A stretch of 22,001 nt of DNA from IMG/VR virus record IMGVR_UViG_3300035152_000026, positions 1 through 22,001 of that record. One strand, written 5' to 3'. The position numbers were made by a program, and so were the translations under genes. The first letter of the stretch is position 1. Every line of letters begins with the position of its first letter. The stretch comes from a virus. Positions 2,718 to 3,901 of the stretch are shown here, one piece after another. The notes beneath the pieces were generated by a model that saw nothing but the letters and a program-made list of their open reading frames with translations, had not been told where the DNA came from and searched no databases.

Positions 2718-2927
2718 ATGGCAAAGCGAAAGTGTGTTCGGTTCAAGCCCAAGCCCAAGAGGAAGCAGCCCCGATACGTCTTCGTCGAGTGGAGAGATCG
2801 CGGCGATTACCACGGCGGCTCCTACACCGAGTCCGATGTGCCAGCACTCCTTGACACGCTTGCCGAACGTGGTGTCAGCTCCGTAGTCATCGATGAGGTT
2901 GAGGTCTGCGTACCGAAGGCTAAGTGA
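2718..2927 (+). CDS. small basic hypothetical protein (69 aa)
   Basis: ATG ORF. Its 3' end overlaps the start of the next gene (ATG at 2924). Confidence 0.5.
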   Translation: MAKRKCVRFKPKPKRKQPRYVFVEWRDRGDYHGGSYTESDVPALLDTLAERGVSSVVIDEVEVCVPKAK

Positions 2928-3901
2928 TGCTCGGTCAGGTCGATCCCTACCAACAGAGTACTGAGTACACTTGCTCGGCGGCAGCGGAGCACGCGGTCAT
3001 GAAGCATTGGGGCTACGACATCGACGAGGTGACGCTCGCCCACCTACTCAAGGTTGATCCGATCAACGGGTCCAACGCGTCGCGTGTCGTGTCCGTGGCG
3101 CGTAGCTTCGGCTTCGCAGCCGAGAGTCGGAACTTCAAGTCCATCGACGAGCTGAAGCGTGTCACCGATCAGGACGTTCCAGTCATCGCACGTGTGTTGA
3201 GCTGGAAGCACCCCGGTCAATATCATTTCGTAGTTGTGACTGCTGTCGATACCCTTGGTATTTCAGTGATGGACCCCAACGTTCGAGGTAATCGACGTTG
3301 CCTCACGCACGTAGAGATGCAACACCGGTGGCAGCCTGACTGCCTTGGCGTCATCATTACACCTCAAGGCTATCCGCTTGCCGGAACGCTGCCAACTCGT
3401 CGATGGCTGCCGTGGCTTGCCTTCGGCGTGCTTGCAGCTGCGGCAGGTACGTATGTCGTCATGGTACGTCGTCGCCGACGTAAACAGAACCTCAGCGGCT
3501 ACTATCGAATCACCGAGCCGCCGCCACCGATCAAAGAGGTTGTGCGACGTTGGGCGTGCAGCTCGGACAAAGCCTACGATGGCACGTTCTGGTACGACCT
3601 CGACGAGGTGTGGCCCTACCGGGAGTATTACTGGACCCGTTCTACCGCCCGCGAAGGCTCGAAGCAGTGGGACGCTTTAGAGGCCAGTATGGAAAGGCGT
3701 GGTTGGACGGAAAACCCAGCACACGTCATTGTCGGTCGAAACGCTTGCGCCAAGGTCGGTGAAGGGAACCATCGGCTCAGTGTGGCTCGCAAGTTAGGGA
3801 TCGACCGAGTGCCAGTCACGTTCCACTTCTACCAAAGCGTGGAGACTGACCACCCGAGAGCGCATGCGAAGTGCTTCGACAAAGAGACGCTTTGTAGCTA
3901 G
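2924..3901 (+). CDS. membrane protein with N-terminal C39-like papain-fold cysteine peptidase domain, one TM helix, and C-terminal ParB/Srx-like nuclease domain
   Basis: N-terminus shows the C39 signature in order: Q (YQQ), catalytic C (YTCSAAAEHA), H (HFVVVTAV) and DP (MDPNVRG). A hydrophobic segment WLPWLAFGVLAAAAGTYVVMV is followed by RRRRRK. C-terminus: ...PAHVIVGRNACAKVGEGNHRLSVARKLGIDRVPV matches the ParB N-terminal nuclease-domain core. Confidence 0.65.
   Translation: MMLGQVDPYQQSTEYTCSAAAEHAVMKHWGYDIDEVTLAHLLKVDPINGSNASRVVSVARSFGFAAESRNFKSIDELKRVTDQDVPVIARVLSWKHPGQYHFVVVTAVDTLGISVMDPNVRGNRRCLTHVEMQHRWQPDCLGVIITPQGYPLAGTLPTRRWLPWLAFGVLAAAAGTYVVMVRRRRRKQNLSGYYRITEPPPPIKEVVRRWACSSDKAYDGTFWYDLDEVWPYREYYWTRSTAREGSKQWDALEASMERRGWTENPAHVIVGRNACAKVGEGNHRLSVARKLGIDRVPVTFHFYQSVETDHPRAHAKCFDKETLCS

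What the first reader, a model, noticed from the sequence alone, without database searches (positions are those of the whole stretch)
2924..3901. Unusual fusion: C39-like cysteine peptidase - TM helix - ParB/Srx nuclease-like domain
C39-type peptidase domains normally sit at the N-terminus of bacteriocin ABC exporters or act as stand-alone processing proteases. ParB-like nuclease domains are DNA or nucleotide binding and cleaving modules. A single TM helix followed by RRRRRK separates the two, which puts them on opposite sides of the membrane. I am not aware of a described C39-TM-ParB protein. It could be a toxin or processing module of a mobile element, or a superinfection-exclusion or defence effector, released or activated by proteolysis.
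Basis: partly seen in the sequence, partly recalled or inferred. Interest (0 to 1): 0.55.

Follow-up and report, generated by a model that had tools for sequence, protein, structure and literature searches.

The report
Phage membrane peptidase–ParB/Srx fusion protein
An uncultured large phage encodes a real, conserved membrane protein that joins an apparently active bacteriocin-type cysteine peptidase to a previously unnamed, phage-only branch of the ParB/sulfiredoxin nucleotide-binding fold; the combination is rare and new, but its function can only be inferred.

Summary
Window 2927-3901 (+) encodes a 324-aa protein. It has a C39 peptidase domain, one TM helix followed by RRRRRK, and a C-terminal domain whose AlphaFold model (pLDDT 94.7) matches only ParB/Srx-fold structures. 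Pfam gives E=7e-13 for C39, ComA's peptidase domain matches at E=3e-5, and Gln/Cys/His/Asp are invariant in 14 homologues.

The fusion is not an artefact. Identical copies occur in three independent samples with DNA, and two intact homologues at 64-65% identity keep the frame. A third copy carries two frameshifts. dN/dS is about 0.07 (C39) and 0.13 (ParB/Srx).

Each half also exists alone in phages: C39-TM (~200 aa) and TM-polybasic-ParB/Srx. The ParB/Srx domain belongs to a large family with no Pfam model: 142 clusters at E≤1e-30, and EGNHR present in 168 of 170 members. It occurs in viral contigs, was not found in 185,579 cellular genomes, and is fused elsewhere to RNA-repair, NAD/ADP-ribose and DNA enzymes.

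Best reading: a bitopic phage accessory/conflict protein, with ParB/Srx on the cytoplasmic face and the peptidase on the other. Nuclease activity and proteolytic release are unsupported. Verdict: new variant of known kinds, moderate interest.

The parts
2718..2927 (+). Upstream 69-aa basic ORF. Its stop codon overlaps the start of the fusion gene (TGATG), so the two are probably co-translated. Function unknown. Not conserved next to C39-only relatives.
2927..3901 (+). Whole fusion gene: 324 codons plus a TAG stop. Likely start is ATG 2927; GTG 2924 is in frame one codon upstream.
2939..3367 (+). C39 (double-glycine-type, papain-like) cysteine peptidase domain, aa ~5-147.
   Evidence: Pfam PF03412 E=7e-13 and PF13529 E=6e-11. 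ComA PEP 3k8u/5xe8 E=3e-5 and PCAT1 E=5e-3. AF2 pLDDT >90 over this stretch.
2951..2974 (+). Active-site N-terminal motif QQSTEYTC: oxyanion Gln9/Gln10 and catalytic Cys16.
   Evidence: Invariant in 14 homologues. Aligns with the DCG Cys of ComA.
3224..3226 (+). Catalytic His100 (HFVVV).
   Evidence: Invariant in 14 homologues.
3272..3274 (+). Catalytic Asp116 (MDPN).
   Evidence: Invariant in 14 homologues. Aligns with the ComA DPDP motif.
3404..3466 (+). Single transmembrane helix, W160-V180.
   Evidence: Hydropathy scan. Helix 164-188 in the full-length AF2 model, with low pLDDT as expected for an isolated TM. Present in all fusion and C39-TM homologues.
3467..3484 (+). Polybasic cluster RRRRRK directly after the TM helix. 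It is the topology determinant and places the C-terminal side in the cytoplasm.
   Evidence: Flank charges +7 (C side) against +2 (N side). The same bias is seen in P0002, P0003, P0078, P0073 and P0063, and mirrored in P0039.
3485..3850 (+). ParB/Srx-fold domain, aa 187-308, a member of a phage family that has no Pfam model.
3614..3628 (+). PYREY motif (aa 230-234). Inferred equivalent of the first conserved motif of ParB/Srx domains.
   Evidence: Y and R are invariant and P, E, Y nearly invariant in the 26-31 closest family members. The exact PYREY string is present in only 67 of 170 members of the wider family.
3761..3775 (+). EGNHR motif (aa 279-283) at the strand-to-helix junction. Inferred equivalent of the phosphate-binding GCHR of sulfiredoxin and GERR of ParB.
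   Evidence: Present in 168 of 170 family members. Position in the secondary structure.
3851..3898 (+). C-terminal tail with KCFD...LC. With C211 and C274 it gives four Cys that are conserved only in the C39-fused subgroup. This could be a Zn site or disulfides; it is not resolved.
   Evidence: The tail is confidently modelled (pLDDT 90-95).

Best explanation
The gene encodes a bitopic inner-membrane accessory protein of an uncultured large phage. It combines two modules that each exist alone in phages and share one transmembrane helix.

Module 1 is a catalytically competent C39 (double-glycine-type) cysteine peptidase followed by a TM anchor. Module 2 is a TM helix, a polybasic cluster, and a ParB/Srx-fold domain. 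That domain belongs to a large phage-restricted family with an almost invariant EGNHR loop.

Shown:
- The reading frame and the three-part anatomy.
- The conserved active-site residues in both halves.
- Purifying selection on both halves.
- The independent existence of each module.
- The promiscuous use of the ParB/Srx module in multidomain phage proteins.

Inferred:
- The ParB/Srx domain sits on the cytoplasmic face. The polybasic cluster is on its side of the TM in every architecture where the bias is clear, and NTPs are only available inside.
- The peptidase is therefore on the outer face.
- The ParB/Srx domain binds and probably hydrolyses or transfers phosphate from an NTP, acting on nucleic acid or nucleotides next to the membrane.
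- The peptidase cuts a peptide or protein substrate outside the membrane.

The most likely biological role is a non-essential host-takeover or conflict function at the cell envelope, such as exclusion of incoming DNA or counter-defence. It is not partition, virion structure or a self-activating toxin.
For: Reality of the gene and fusion:
- ORF and start codon.
- Identical protein on 5 contigs; DNA was retrieved from three independent samples.
- Two intact fusion homologues at 64-65% identity (P0002, P0003). A third copy (P0004) has two frameshifts inside the ParB/Srx domain.
- dN/dS against L034: C39 0.066, ParB/Srx 0.129, linker 0.41. dS is near saturation (~2), so the values are rough.

C39 half:
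- Pfam E=7e-13 and ComA PEP E=3e-5.
- Q9/Q10, C16, H100 and D116 are invariant in 14 sequences.

ParB/Srx half:
- AF2 pLDDT 94.7.
- Foldseek PDB and BFVD top matches are ParB/Srx.
- EGNHR is present in 168 of 170 members.

Modularity:
- C39-TM-only proteins of 188-206 aa exist. One (P0006) sits at the syntenic position between the EF-Tu-like and TROVE genes.
- The nearest relatives of the fusion's ParB/Srx domain are P0078 (TM-polybasic-ParB/Srx), P0073 and P0063 (other N-terminal domain, then TM-polybasic-ParB/Srx). They form one NJ clade with the fusions.

Topology:
- K+R counts in the 15 residues on each side of the TM favour the ParB/Srx side: 7 vs 2, 6 vs 2, 7 vs 2, 6 vs 1 and 4 vs 3. In the reversed architecture P0039 the count is 9 vs 3.
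- The full-length AF2 model shows two independent domains joined by a helix (pTM 0.54).

Conflict-module character of the family:
- 142 / 352 / 1443 clusters at E≤1e-30 / 1e-10 / 1e-3.
- Fusions to Topo IB, CCA/polyA polymerase, HAD_SAK_1, 2H/LigT, Tad6, VanY, NUDIX, PARP, SAM lyase, AAA_33 and GNAT.
- 16 IMG/VR loci, including 133-275 kb viral genomes.
- No confirmed match in 185,579 species genomes.
- In one phage lineage the gene lies within a nuclease / primase-like / SbcCD-like module.
- This matches the 'polyvalent protein' theme described for other ParB/Srx domains (PMC5512222).
Against: - No biochemical or genetic data exist for any member.
- The N-terminal 150-aa peptidase has no signal peptide. 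Export would need the TM to act as a reverse signal-anchor, which is uncommon for so long an N-terminal domain.
- Its closest characterised relatives (ComA and PCAT peptidase domains) work in the cytoplasm.
- In some C39-TM-only relatives both TM flanks are basic (P0008, P0009, P0010), so their topology is ambiguous.
- The equivalence of the motifs to known NTP-binding residues is inferred from secondary-structure position and from non-significant alignments.
- The four subgroup-specific cysteines in the ParB/Srx half could be disulfides, which would argue for an extracytoplasmic location.
- The nearest syntenic relative lacks the domain, so it is dispensable in that lineage.
- The host is unknown.
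Confidence: 0.5

Rival explanations
1. Lysis or envelope-remodelling enzyme. The C39 domain is a membrane-anchored cell-wall endopeptidase, analogous to the 'lysin A, protease C39 domain' of actinobacteriophages. The ParB/Srx part adds a separate activity, for example host DNA degradation.
For: - C39-like cysteine protease domains are recognised modules of mycobacteriophage and Gordonia phage lysin A (PMC3314691, PMC12821328).
- Relatives tend to lie near envelope hydrolases. P0010 is two genes from a GDSL lipase and upstream of an integrase. P0078 is 2 kb from a GDSL lipase. P0073 is next to an M23 peptidase. L008 has a lysozyme and an M23 peptidase 4.5-6 kb away.
- The predicted outside-facing topology would suit a wall substrate.
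Against: - The domain is closest to transporter-type C39 (PF03412, ComA, PCAT1, TIGR03796).
- tblastn against 50,697 phage genomes finds no lysin A.
- PHROGs gives only 'ABC transporter'.
- The genes beside P0010 have no lysin or holin profile hits.
- No lysozyme, amidase or holin was identified in the window.
Confidence: 0.15
2. Cytoplasm-facing peptidase. As in peptidase-containing ABC transporters, the C39 domain stays in the cytoplasm at the membrane and cleaves Gly-Gly leader peptides of phage or host. The hydrophobic helix is only an anchor. The ParB/Srx domain would then be outside, or the helix would not span the membrane and both domains would be cytoplasmic.
For: - There is no signal peptide, and the catalytic Cys is at residue 16.
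- The closest solved relatives are cytoplasmic PEP domains.
- The C39-TM relatives look like tail-anchored proteins, and some have basic residues on both flanks.
Against: - Six consecutive basic residues directly after the helix would have to cross the membrane.
- A ParB/Srx domain outside the cell would have no NTP.
- The polybasic cluster follows the ParB/Srx side in independent architectures, including P0039, where the domain is N-terminal and has no signal peptide.
- No ORF with a Gly-Gly leader pattern was found in the window.
- No conserved small partner gene is seen next to relatives.
Confidence: 0.2
3. Self-processing pro-effector. The C39 domain cuts the polypeptide and releases or activates a toxic ParB/Srx nuclease.
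For: C39 peptidases are processing enzymes. Autoprocessing peptidases are common in phage polyvalent proteins; P1 DdrB is a predicted example (PMC5512222).
Against: - No conserved Gly-Gly or other conserved site lies in the linkers on either side of the TM.
- The two domains are predicted to be on opposite faces of the membrane.
- Membrane-tethered ParB/Srx proteins exist with no peptidase at all (P0078) or with a different N-terminal domain (P0073, P0063).
- C39-TM exists without the ParB/Srx domain.
Confidence: 0.05
4. Artefact: a frameshift or assembly chimera has joined two neighbouring genes.
For: One relative (P0004 / L035) has two frameshifts inside the ParB/Srx domain, which shows that errors or decay do occur at this locus.
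Against: - Identical sequence occurs in independent JGI and SRA assemblies.
- P0002 and P0003, at 64-65% identity, keep one frame through both domains, with low dN/dS.
- No relative has the two halves as adjacent genes.
Confidence: 0.02

Closest known systems
Peptidase domain (PEP, MEROPS C39) of bacteriocin/competence-peptide ABC exporters: ComA, PCAT1, LagD-type
   Same: Homologous by sequence (Pfam PF03412 E=7e-13; ComA PEP E=3e-5; PCAT1 E=5e-3). Same Gln-x5-Cys ... His ... Asp arrangement. The domain is N-terminal and is followed by a membrane segment.
   Different: It has no six-helix transporter domain and no ATPase. Only one TM helix follows, with a polybasic cluster that predicts the opposite orientation. 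No Gly-Gly leader substrate gene is nearby. It is encoded by a phage.
ParB/Srx superfamily minimal domains: sulfiredoxin, free serine kinase SerK/SbnI, PadC, pNOB8 ParB-N
   Different: There is no sequence-profile match to Pfam ParBc or to PDB sequences. It has its own N-terminal GYY strand-plus-helix extension and PYREY motif. Asn replaces the Srx catalytic Cys. The substrate is unknown.
Chromosome/plasmid ParB, Noc, KorB (CTP-dependent clamps)
   Same: The N-terminal domain fold. These are the top Foldseek hits (Noc E=9e-4; KorB, ParB).
   Different: It has no HTH DNA-binding domain, no C-terminal dimerisation domain, no GERRxRA or ENLQR motifs, and no ParA partner gene. It is tethered to the membrane by a TM helix.
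Osa (IncW plasmid pSa fertility-inhibition protein)
   Different: It is only a distant structural match, it has no TM helix or peptidase, and it belongs to a different family. The analogy is a lead, not a test.
DdrB-like ParB domains of phage polyvalent proteins (Iyer et al. 2017, PMC5512222)
   Same: A phage-restricted ParB/Srx domain that is used promiscuously in multidomain conflict proteins alongside peptidases, ARTs, NTases, 2H and GNAT domains.
   Different: It is not the same family. No DdrB-ParB Pfam family was listed for any of 94 members scanned, and hhalign of the family profile against P1 DdrB gives E=0.46.
Actinobacteriophage 'lysin A, protease C39 domain' (N5 domain of mycobacteriophage LysA)
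   Same: A phage-encoded C39-like cysteine protease domain.
   Different: No detectable similarity by tblastn against 50,697 phage genomes. No lysis-cassette context was demonstrated.

Membership tests
Peptidase family C39 (clan CA) | Match to the family profile above the curated threshold | tested here: met
   PF03412 scores 49 bits against a cut-off of 22 (E=6.9e-13). PF13529 scores 43.6 against 24. ComA PEP E=3e-5.
Peptidase family C39 (clan CA) | Catalytic Cys and His, plus Asp and the oxyanion Gln | tested here: met
   Q9/Q10, C16, H100 and D116 are invariant in 14 homologues. Cys and Asp align with those of ComA.
Peptidase family C39 (clan CA) | Cleavage after a double-glycine leader | not testable with these tools
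   No Gly-Gly leader ORF was found in the window by pattern search. Enzymology is needed.
Peptidase-containing ABC transporter (PCAT) | C39 domain fused to a six-helix TMD and an ABC ATPase | tested here: not met
   The protein is 324 aa with one TM helix and no ABC domain. The NCBIfam transporter models match only their first ~120-160 positions.
ParB/Srx superfamily | The alpha/beta fold shared by ParB N-terminal domains and sulfiredoxin | tested here: met
ParB/Srx superfamily | Conserved Arg-containing phosphate-binding loop at the strand-helix junction (GxxR / GCHR / GERR) | tested here: inconclusive
   EGNHR is present in 168 of 170 members and lies at the junction of strand 89-93 and helix 95-104. 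Residue-level superposition was not available. The alignments to Srx and Spo0J have the expected register but are not significant.
ParB/Srx superfamily | Sequence-profile match to Pfam ParBc or related models | tested here: not met
   The window domain gave no family at E≤1. No ParB family appeared among the 25 families shown (of 30) for 31 members, nor among all 16 families listed for 63 further members. There were only weak PHROG ParB hits.
ParB/Srx superfamily | NTP binding or hydrolysis, or DNase activity | not testable with these tools
   This needs biochemistry.
Partition ParB / Noc / KorB | HTH DNA-binding domain, dimerisation domain, ParA partner, GERRxRA and ENLQR CTP motifs | tested here: not met
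   The domain is about 120 aa and ends in a Cys-rich tail. No ParA-like gene appears among the neighbours scanned. The motif is EGNHR.
DdrB-like ParB domain (polyvalent proteins) | Profile similarity to P1 DdrB N-terminal domain or Pfam DdrB-ParB | tested here: not met
   hhalign of the family profile against P1 DdrB gives E=0.46 over 13 columns. No DdrB-ParB family was listed.
Phage 'polyvalent protein' class (Iyer et al. 2017) | Two or more unrelated effector-type domains in one polypeptide of a phage or plasmid, drawn from a shared promiscuous domain pool | tested here: inconclusive
   The ParB/Srx module is clearly promiscuous, and the protein joins it to a peptidase. But this two-domain membrane protein lacks the typical virion-packaging context, and C39 is not mentioned in that paper.
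Actinophage lysin A protease C39 domain | Similarity to LysA C39/N5 domains and location in a lysis cassette | tested here: not met
   No tblastn match to any LysA in 50,697 phage records. No lysin or holin profile hits beside the relatives.

The most novel reading that the evidence does not exclude
The EGNHR ParB/Srx domain defines a previously unrecognised, phage-only class of NTP-dependent conflict enzymes. They are delivered to their site of action by interchangeable address tags: either a C-terminal docking peptide (VDxIMxLLGΦ) or a TM anchor. In the membrane-anchored subclade it is paired across the membrane with an outward-facing hydrolase: C39 here, and in P0073 a different N-terminal domain that I read as a putative serine hydrolase from a GHSAA motif only. 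The pair would form a two-sided envelope device, for example a superinfection-exclusion machine that attacks an incoming phage's ejected proteins outside and its DNA or nucleotides inside.
Probability: 0.15. Interest if true: 0.7.

Novelty: new variant of a known kind. Interest (0 to 1): 0.45.

Why it matters
Both folds are well known, so this is not a new kind of system. Three points are new and useful.

1. A large ParB/Srx family has no Pfam, NCBIfam or PDB-sequence match and an almost invariant EGNHR loop. There are at least 142 clusters at 50% identity with E≤1e-30. It was found in viral and metagenomic contigs, while a single-motif scan of 185,579 cellular genomes found nothing. It is repeatedly fused to RNA-repair, NAD/ADP-ribose, DNA and anti-defence domains. 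That makes it a good candidate for a counter-defence or host-takeover enzyme whose chemistry is unknown.

2. A subclade of this family is tethered to the membrane, and different N-terminal domains have been attached to it across the same TM helix. This suggests that the envelope is its site of action.

3. A transporter-type C39 peptidase has been cut loose from its transporter and kept, with an intact active site, as a small membrane-anchored phage protein.

If the ParB/Srx domain proves to be an NTP-dependent nuclease or phosphotransferase acting at the DNA-entry site, it would add a mechanism to superinfection exclusion or anti-defence biology.

Tried and rejected
- **AFDB50 fold search.** The library was not available.
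- **Split-gene test.** I searched 10-20 kb around the C39-TM-only relatives for a separately encoded ParB/Srx gene and found none. The 179-aa gene downstream of P0007 is unrelated.
- **Origin of the C-terminal GY of P0006.** I first read it as a vestige of the GYY strand. Those codons are in fact antisense to the remnant of the convergent gene. Whether the domain was gained or lost at this locus is unresolved.
- **Gly-Gly leader substrates.** The regex scan of the window found none. The upstream 69-aa ORF contains HGGS but is not conserved beside relatives.
- **Lysis-cassette hypothesis.** PHROG scans of the genes around P0010 gave nothing.
- **P0073 N-terminal domain.** It has a GHSAA motif that looks like a serine-hydrolase elbow, but there is no Pfam or PDB support. 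I kept it only as an inference.
- **DdrB-like ParB membership.** Rejected.
- **Near-identical phage genome.** None in INPHARED, and the fusion is absent from IMG/VR.
- **Y RNA or tRNA next to the TROVE gene.** None was found at Rfam gathering thresholds or by ARAGORN.
- **Promoter and terminator scan.** It gave chance-level matches only.
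Full report

An open reading frame runs from 2924 to 3901 on the + strand. The sequence at its 5' end reads ...AAGTGATGCTC.... The TGA of the upstream 69-aa ORF (2718-2927) shares its A with an ATG at 2927. Gene callers and all homologues begin MLGQV/MFGQV.

Exactly this protein is on record on five contigs. DNA was retrieved from three independent samples: JGI 3300035136, JGI 3300035146 and SRA run SRR11697951. An assembly chimera is therefore excluded.

**2. The N-terminal domain**

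- Pfam Peptidase_C39 matches residues 9-137 at E=6.9e-13 (49 bits, gathering cut-off 22). Peptidase_C39_2 matches at E=5.8e-11.
- A plain phmmer search of PDB sequences finds the isolated peptidase domain of ComA (3k8u, 5xe8) at E=3e-5, and PCAT1 and full-length ComA at about 5e-3 to 8e-3. The alignment pairs Cys16 with the catalytic Cys and MDPN with DPDP.
- NCBIfam gives only partial N-terminal matches to peptidase-containing bacteriocin exporters and to stand-alone C39 families (PA2778, FapD).
- In an alignment of 14 homologues down to 34% identity, Gln9/Gln10, Cys16, His100 and Asp116 are invariant.

This is a bona fide C39 domain that is probably active, not a degenerate C39-like domain.

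**3. The membrane segment**

W160-V180 is the only hydrophobic stretch (mean Kyte-Doolittle hydropathy 1.73 over 19 residues). It is followed by RRRRRK.

The full-length AlphaFold model has mean pLDDT 88.9 and pTM 0.54. It shows two confidently folded domains (pLDDT >90) joined by one long helix (164-188) of low confidence, with no fixed mutual orientation. That is the expected picture for two globular domains on either side of a bilayer.

**4. The C-terminal domain**

No sequence method names this domain.

- Pfam, NCBIfam and PADLOC gave nothing beyond a weak methyltransferase-associated ParB match.
- Two family profiles searched against all PDB sequences found only noise.
- PHROGs gave several weak but mutually consistent ParB-like hits (E 6e-5 to 4e-3, residues 242-300).

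I therefore built a trimmed alignment of 26 family members (A2) and predicted the structure. The model has pLDDT 94.7 and pTM 0.86.

- Foldseek against PDB: the top 50 listed matches are of the same superfamily (Noc E=9e-4).
- Foldseek against viral models: 23 matches at E≤1e-3, and the named ones are ParB/sulfiredoxin proteins.

The fold assignment is therefore solid, but identity to any known member is only about 15-20%.

The family's signature EGNHR (aa 279-283) sits at the junction of a strand and a helix. That is where sulfiredoxin has GCHR and ParB has GERR. A second motif, PYREY (aa 230-234), plausibly corresponds to the first conserved motif of the superfamily. That is inference.

**5. 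Is the fusion genuine and selected?**

Two intact proteins have the same three-part architecture: P0002 (352 aa, 64% identity) and P0003 (336 aa, 65%). A third copy, P0004, has two frameshifts within about 60 nt inside the ParB/Srx domain on a short SRA contig. These may be errors or recent decay.

A codon alignment of the window gene with L034 (P0002) gives these dN/dS values:

| Region | dN/dS |
|---|---|
| C39 domain | 0.066 |
| ParB/Srx domain | 0.129 |
| Linker, TM and basic segment | 0.41 |

dS is near saturation (about 2), so the figures are rough, but both domains are clearly constrained.

P0002 and P0003 sit in the same neighbourhood as the window gene: an EF-Tu-like gene upstream and, for P0003, the TROVE gene downstream.

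**6. Each half is an independent module**

Seven relatives of 188-206 aa consist of the C39 domain, the TM helix and a short basic tail only (P0005-P0010, P0012). One of them, P0006 (L008), occupies the syntenic position between the EF-Tu-like and TROVE genes (79% identical TROVE). In none of these loci is a ParB/Srx gene found within the 6-10 kb fetched on each side. The fusion is therefore not a merger of neighbouring genes.

Conversely, the nearest relatives of the fusion's ParB/Srx domain are the following:

- P0078: 203 aa, with a short N-tail, TM, RARPRRR, then the domain.
- P0073: 449 aa, with a different N-terminal domain, TM, RWVHRRR, then the domain.
- P0063: 384 aa, with an unknown N-terminal region, TM, a basic stretch, then the domain.

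In a neighbour-joining tree of 168 domains these three form one clade with the fusions. Other members carry the TM on the other side, as domain-polybasic-TM (P0039, P0137).

The direction of evolution at this locus is unresolved. L008 also carries a 32-codon in-frame remnant of the convergent gene that follows the fusion in the window, so the region is prone to deletions.

**7. Topology**

K+R counts in the 15 residues on either side of the helix are:

| Protein | ParB/Srx side | Other side |
|---|---|---|
| Window protein | 7 | 2 |
| P0002 | 6 | 2 |
| P0003 | 7 | 2 |
| P0078 | 6 | 1 |
| P0073 | 4 | 3 |
| P0039 (reversed architecture, domain N-terminal, no signal peptide) | 9 | 3 |

By the positive-inside rule (established knowledge), and because the domain presumably needs NTPs, the ParB/Srx domain should be cytoplasmic. 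The C39 domain would then be extracytoplasmic.

There are three caveats.

- The 150-aa peptidase has no signal peptide, and its closest characterised relatives act in the cytoplasm.
- Some C39-TM-only relatives are basic on both flanks.
- Four cysteines (C211, C274, C316, C323) are conserved only in the C39-fused subgroup. They could be a zinc site or disulfides.

I put about 70% on C39-out/ParB-in.

**8. The ParB/Srx family at large**

A profile search of 1.84 billion cluster representatives finds 142 proteins at E≤1e-30, 352 at E≤1e-10 and 1443 at E≤1e-3. EGNHR is present in 168 of 170 retrieved members.

Many members are stand-alone proteins of 130-200 aa. Others are domains of proteins of up to 2970 aa.

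Pfam families found in multidomain members, plus the GNAT and 2'-5' RNA ligase fusions seen in the first search:

- Seen in several members: eukaryotic-type topoisomerase I (3), polyA/CCA nucleotidyltransferase (3), HAD_SAK_1 of 'Swiss-army-knife' RNA repair proteins (3), 2H/LigT phosphoesterase (2-3), DUF5661 (2).
- Seen once each: Tad6 Thoeris inhibitor, VanY/M15, PcfJ, AAA_33 kinase, NUDIX, SAM lyase, PARP.

The family occurs in 16 IMG/VR viral contigs, including genomes of 133-275 kb, and inside a 1185-aa protein of the 209-kb Dolichospermum phage Dfl-JY45. A scan of one genome from each of 185,579 bacterial and archaeal species gave no confirmed match. That scan used a single motif pattern, so divergent copies could be missed.

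In one lineage of seven related viral contigs the gene lies between a TnsA/endonuclease-I-like nuclease, a weakly primase-like gene and an SbcCD-like gene.

This behaviour matches the 'polyvalent protein' theme of phage conflict systems, in which another ParB/Srx family (DdrB-like) is a hub (PMC5512222). The present family is distinct from that one: no DdrB-ParB Pfam family was listed, and hhalign against P1 DdrB gives E=0.46.

**9. What it most likely does**

The evidence supports a modular, non-essential accessory protein. The window is otherwise full of ORFans, has a TROVE/Ro60-like neighbour and shows no structural hallmark genes. The closest syntenic relative does without the ParB/Srx half.

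The conserved catalytic residues in both halves argue for two working enzymes. I propose that the ParB/Srx domain is an NTP-binding and probably NTP-using enzyme (NTPase, phosphotransferase or NTP-regulated nickase) held at the inner face of the membrane. The peptidase would act on a peptide or protein on the outer face.

The closest functional analogy is Osa, a ParB/Srx ATPase/DNase of an IncW plasmid that, as I recall from the literature, works at the inner membrane against incoming DNA. That is an analogy only.

There is no conserved cleavage motif in the linkers, the domains are predicted to be on opposite faces, and each half occurs without the other.

A lysis role for the C39 domain is a live but weaker rival. 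Literature precedent exists, and envelope hydrolase genes are often nearby. But there is no homology to lysin A and no lysis-cassette evidence.

**10. Novelty and verdict**

No paper in the searched library combines C39 with ParB-like domains in phages. Only four sequence variants of the fusion were found among 5.8 billion protein clusters.

Both folds are known, so I class this as a new variant of known kinds: a new architecture, plus a ParB/Srx family not covered by any family library searched here. Interest is moderate (0.45). The family-level findings matter more than the single fusion: the invariant EGNHR loop, the occurrence in viral contigs with no cellular hit, the conflict-type fusion partners and the alternative address tags. 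No function is demonstrated.

Noticed in passing
Family members P0011, P0013, P0016-P0018, P0043, P0057, P0066, P0090, P0153 and others (not in the window protein): 55 of 170 ParB/Srx-family proteins have a hydrophobic pattern in their last 14 residues. In most of those listed it reads roughly (V/I)-D-(D/E)-(I/L)-M-x-L-L-G-(F/M/L), after a K/E/P-rich linker. This also holds when the domain is the last one in 500-980 aa multidomain proteins. The fusion proteins and P0078, P0073 and P0063 lack it, although the TM-bearing members P0101 and P0160 keep it. It looks like a docking peptide; its shape is reminiscent of sliding-clamp-binding motifs. That idea is untested.
   Followed up: partly
window 3923-4528 (-): A 201-aa ORF converges on the fusion gene, with only 21 nt between the stops. 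Its N-terminus, ITGCPRSGT, resembles the PAPS-binding loop of sulfotransferases (Pfam Sulfotransfer_3, only E=0.11). P0002 and P0003 have a convergent gene of similar size (177 and 185 aa) at the same place. In the C39-TM-only relative L008 it is reduced to a 32-codon in-frame remnant that keeps both ends.
   Followed up: partly
window 4718-6349 (+): A TROVE/Ro60-like RNA-binding protein (Pfam TROVE E=6e-10; phrog_850 E=1e-39). It is 79% identical in relative L008 and 38% identical to genes of Bacillus phage G and Desulfovibrio phage 7757. No Y RNA, tRNA or other Rfam family was detected anywhere in the window at gathering thresholds.
   Followed up: partly
window 3557-3559, 3746-3748, 3872-3874, 3893-3895 (C211, C274, C316, C323): Four cysteines are conserved only in the C39-fused ParB/Srx subgroup and are absent from the other family members inspected. 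They could be a Zn site stapling the C-terminal tail, or two disulfides. The answer would bear on which side of the membrane the domain lies.
   Followed up: no
L016 1483-2832 (P0073): A second hydrolase-like-domain-TM-polybasic-ParB/Srx architecture. The 240-aa N-terminal domain has a GHSAA motif that suggests a serine alpha/beta-hydrolase, but it has no Pfam or PDB match. The gene lies next to an M23 peptidase gene.
   Followed up: partly
L015 3-635, upstream of P0078: The gene that overlaps the start of the TM-ParB/Srx gene P0078 encodes a Pro/Gly/Cys-rich protein ending in a C-terminal TM helix. This would make two membrane proteins in tandem.
   Followed up: no
L019, L020, L023, L027, L029, L030, L031 (IMG/VR): In seven related viral contigs the stand-alone ParB/Srx gene has a fixed place between a TnsA-like/endonuclease-I-like gene, an unassigned 195-aa gene, a weakly primase-like gene and an SbcD+SbcC-like gene (Metallophos + AAA_23). 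This is a DNA replication and recombination module.
   Followed up: partly
L035 2400-2760 (P0004): The fourth copy of the fusion has two frameshifts about 60 nt apart inside the ParB/Srx domain, while the remaining sequence is well conserved. This is either sequencing error or very recent pseudogenisation.
   Followed up: partly
window 11184-11798 (-), 7162-7989 (-), 194-628 (+): Other recognisable ORFs in the window: DUF3228 (E=5.5e-16); a 275-aa protein with a DUF3140-like segment (E=6e-5), of which residues 21-131 are 78% identical in L008; and an ORF with a weak ribosomal L7/L12 C-terminal-domain-like match (E=6e-4). Related contigs also encode an EF-Tu-like GTPase and a CCA-adding enzyme, which points to a translation/RNA theme in this phage group.
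   Followed up: no
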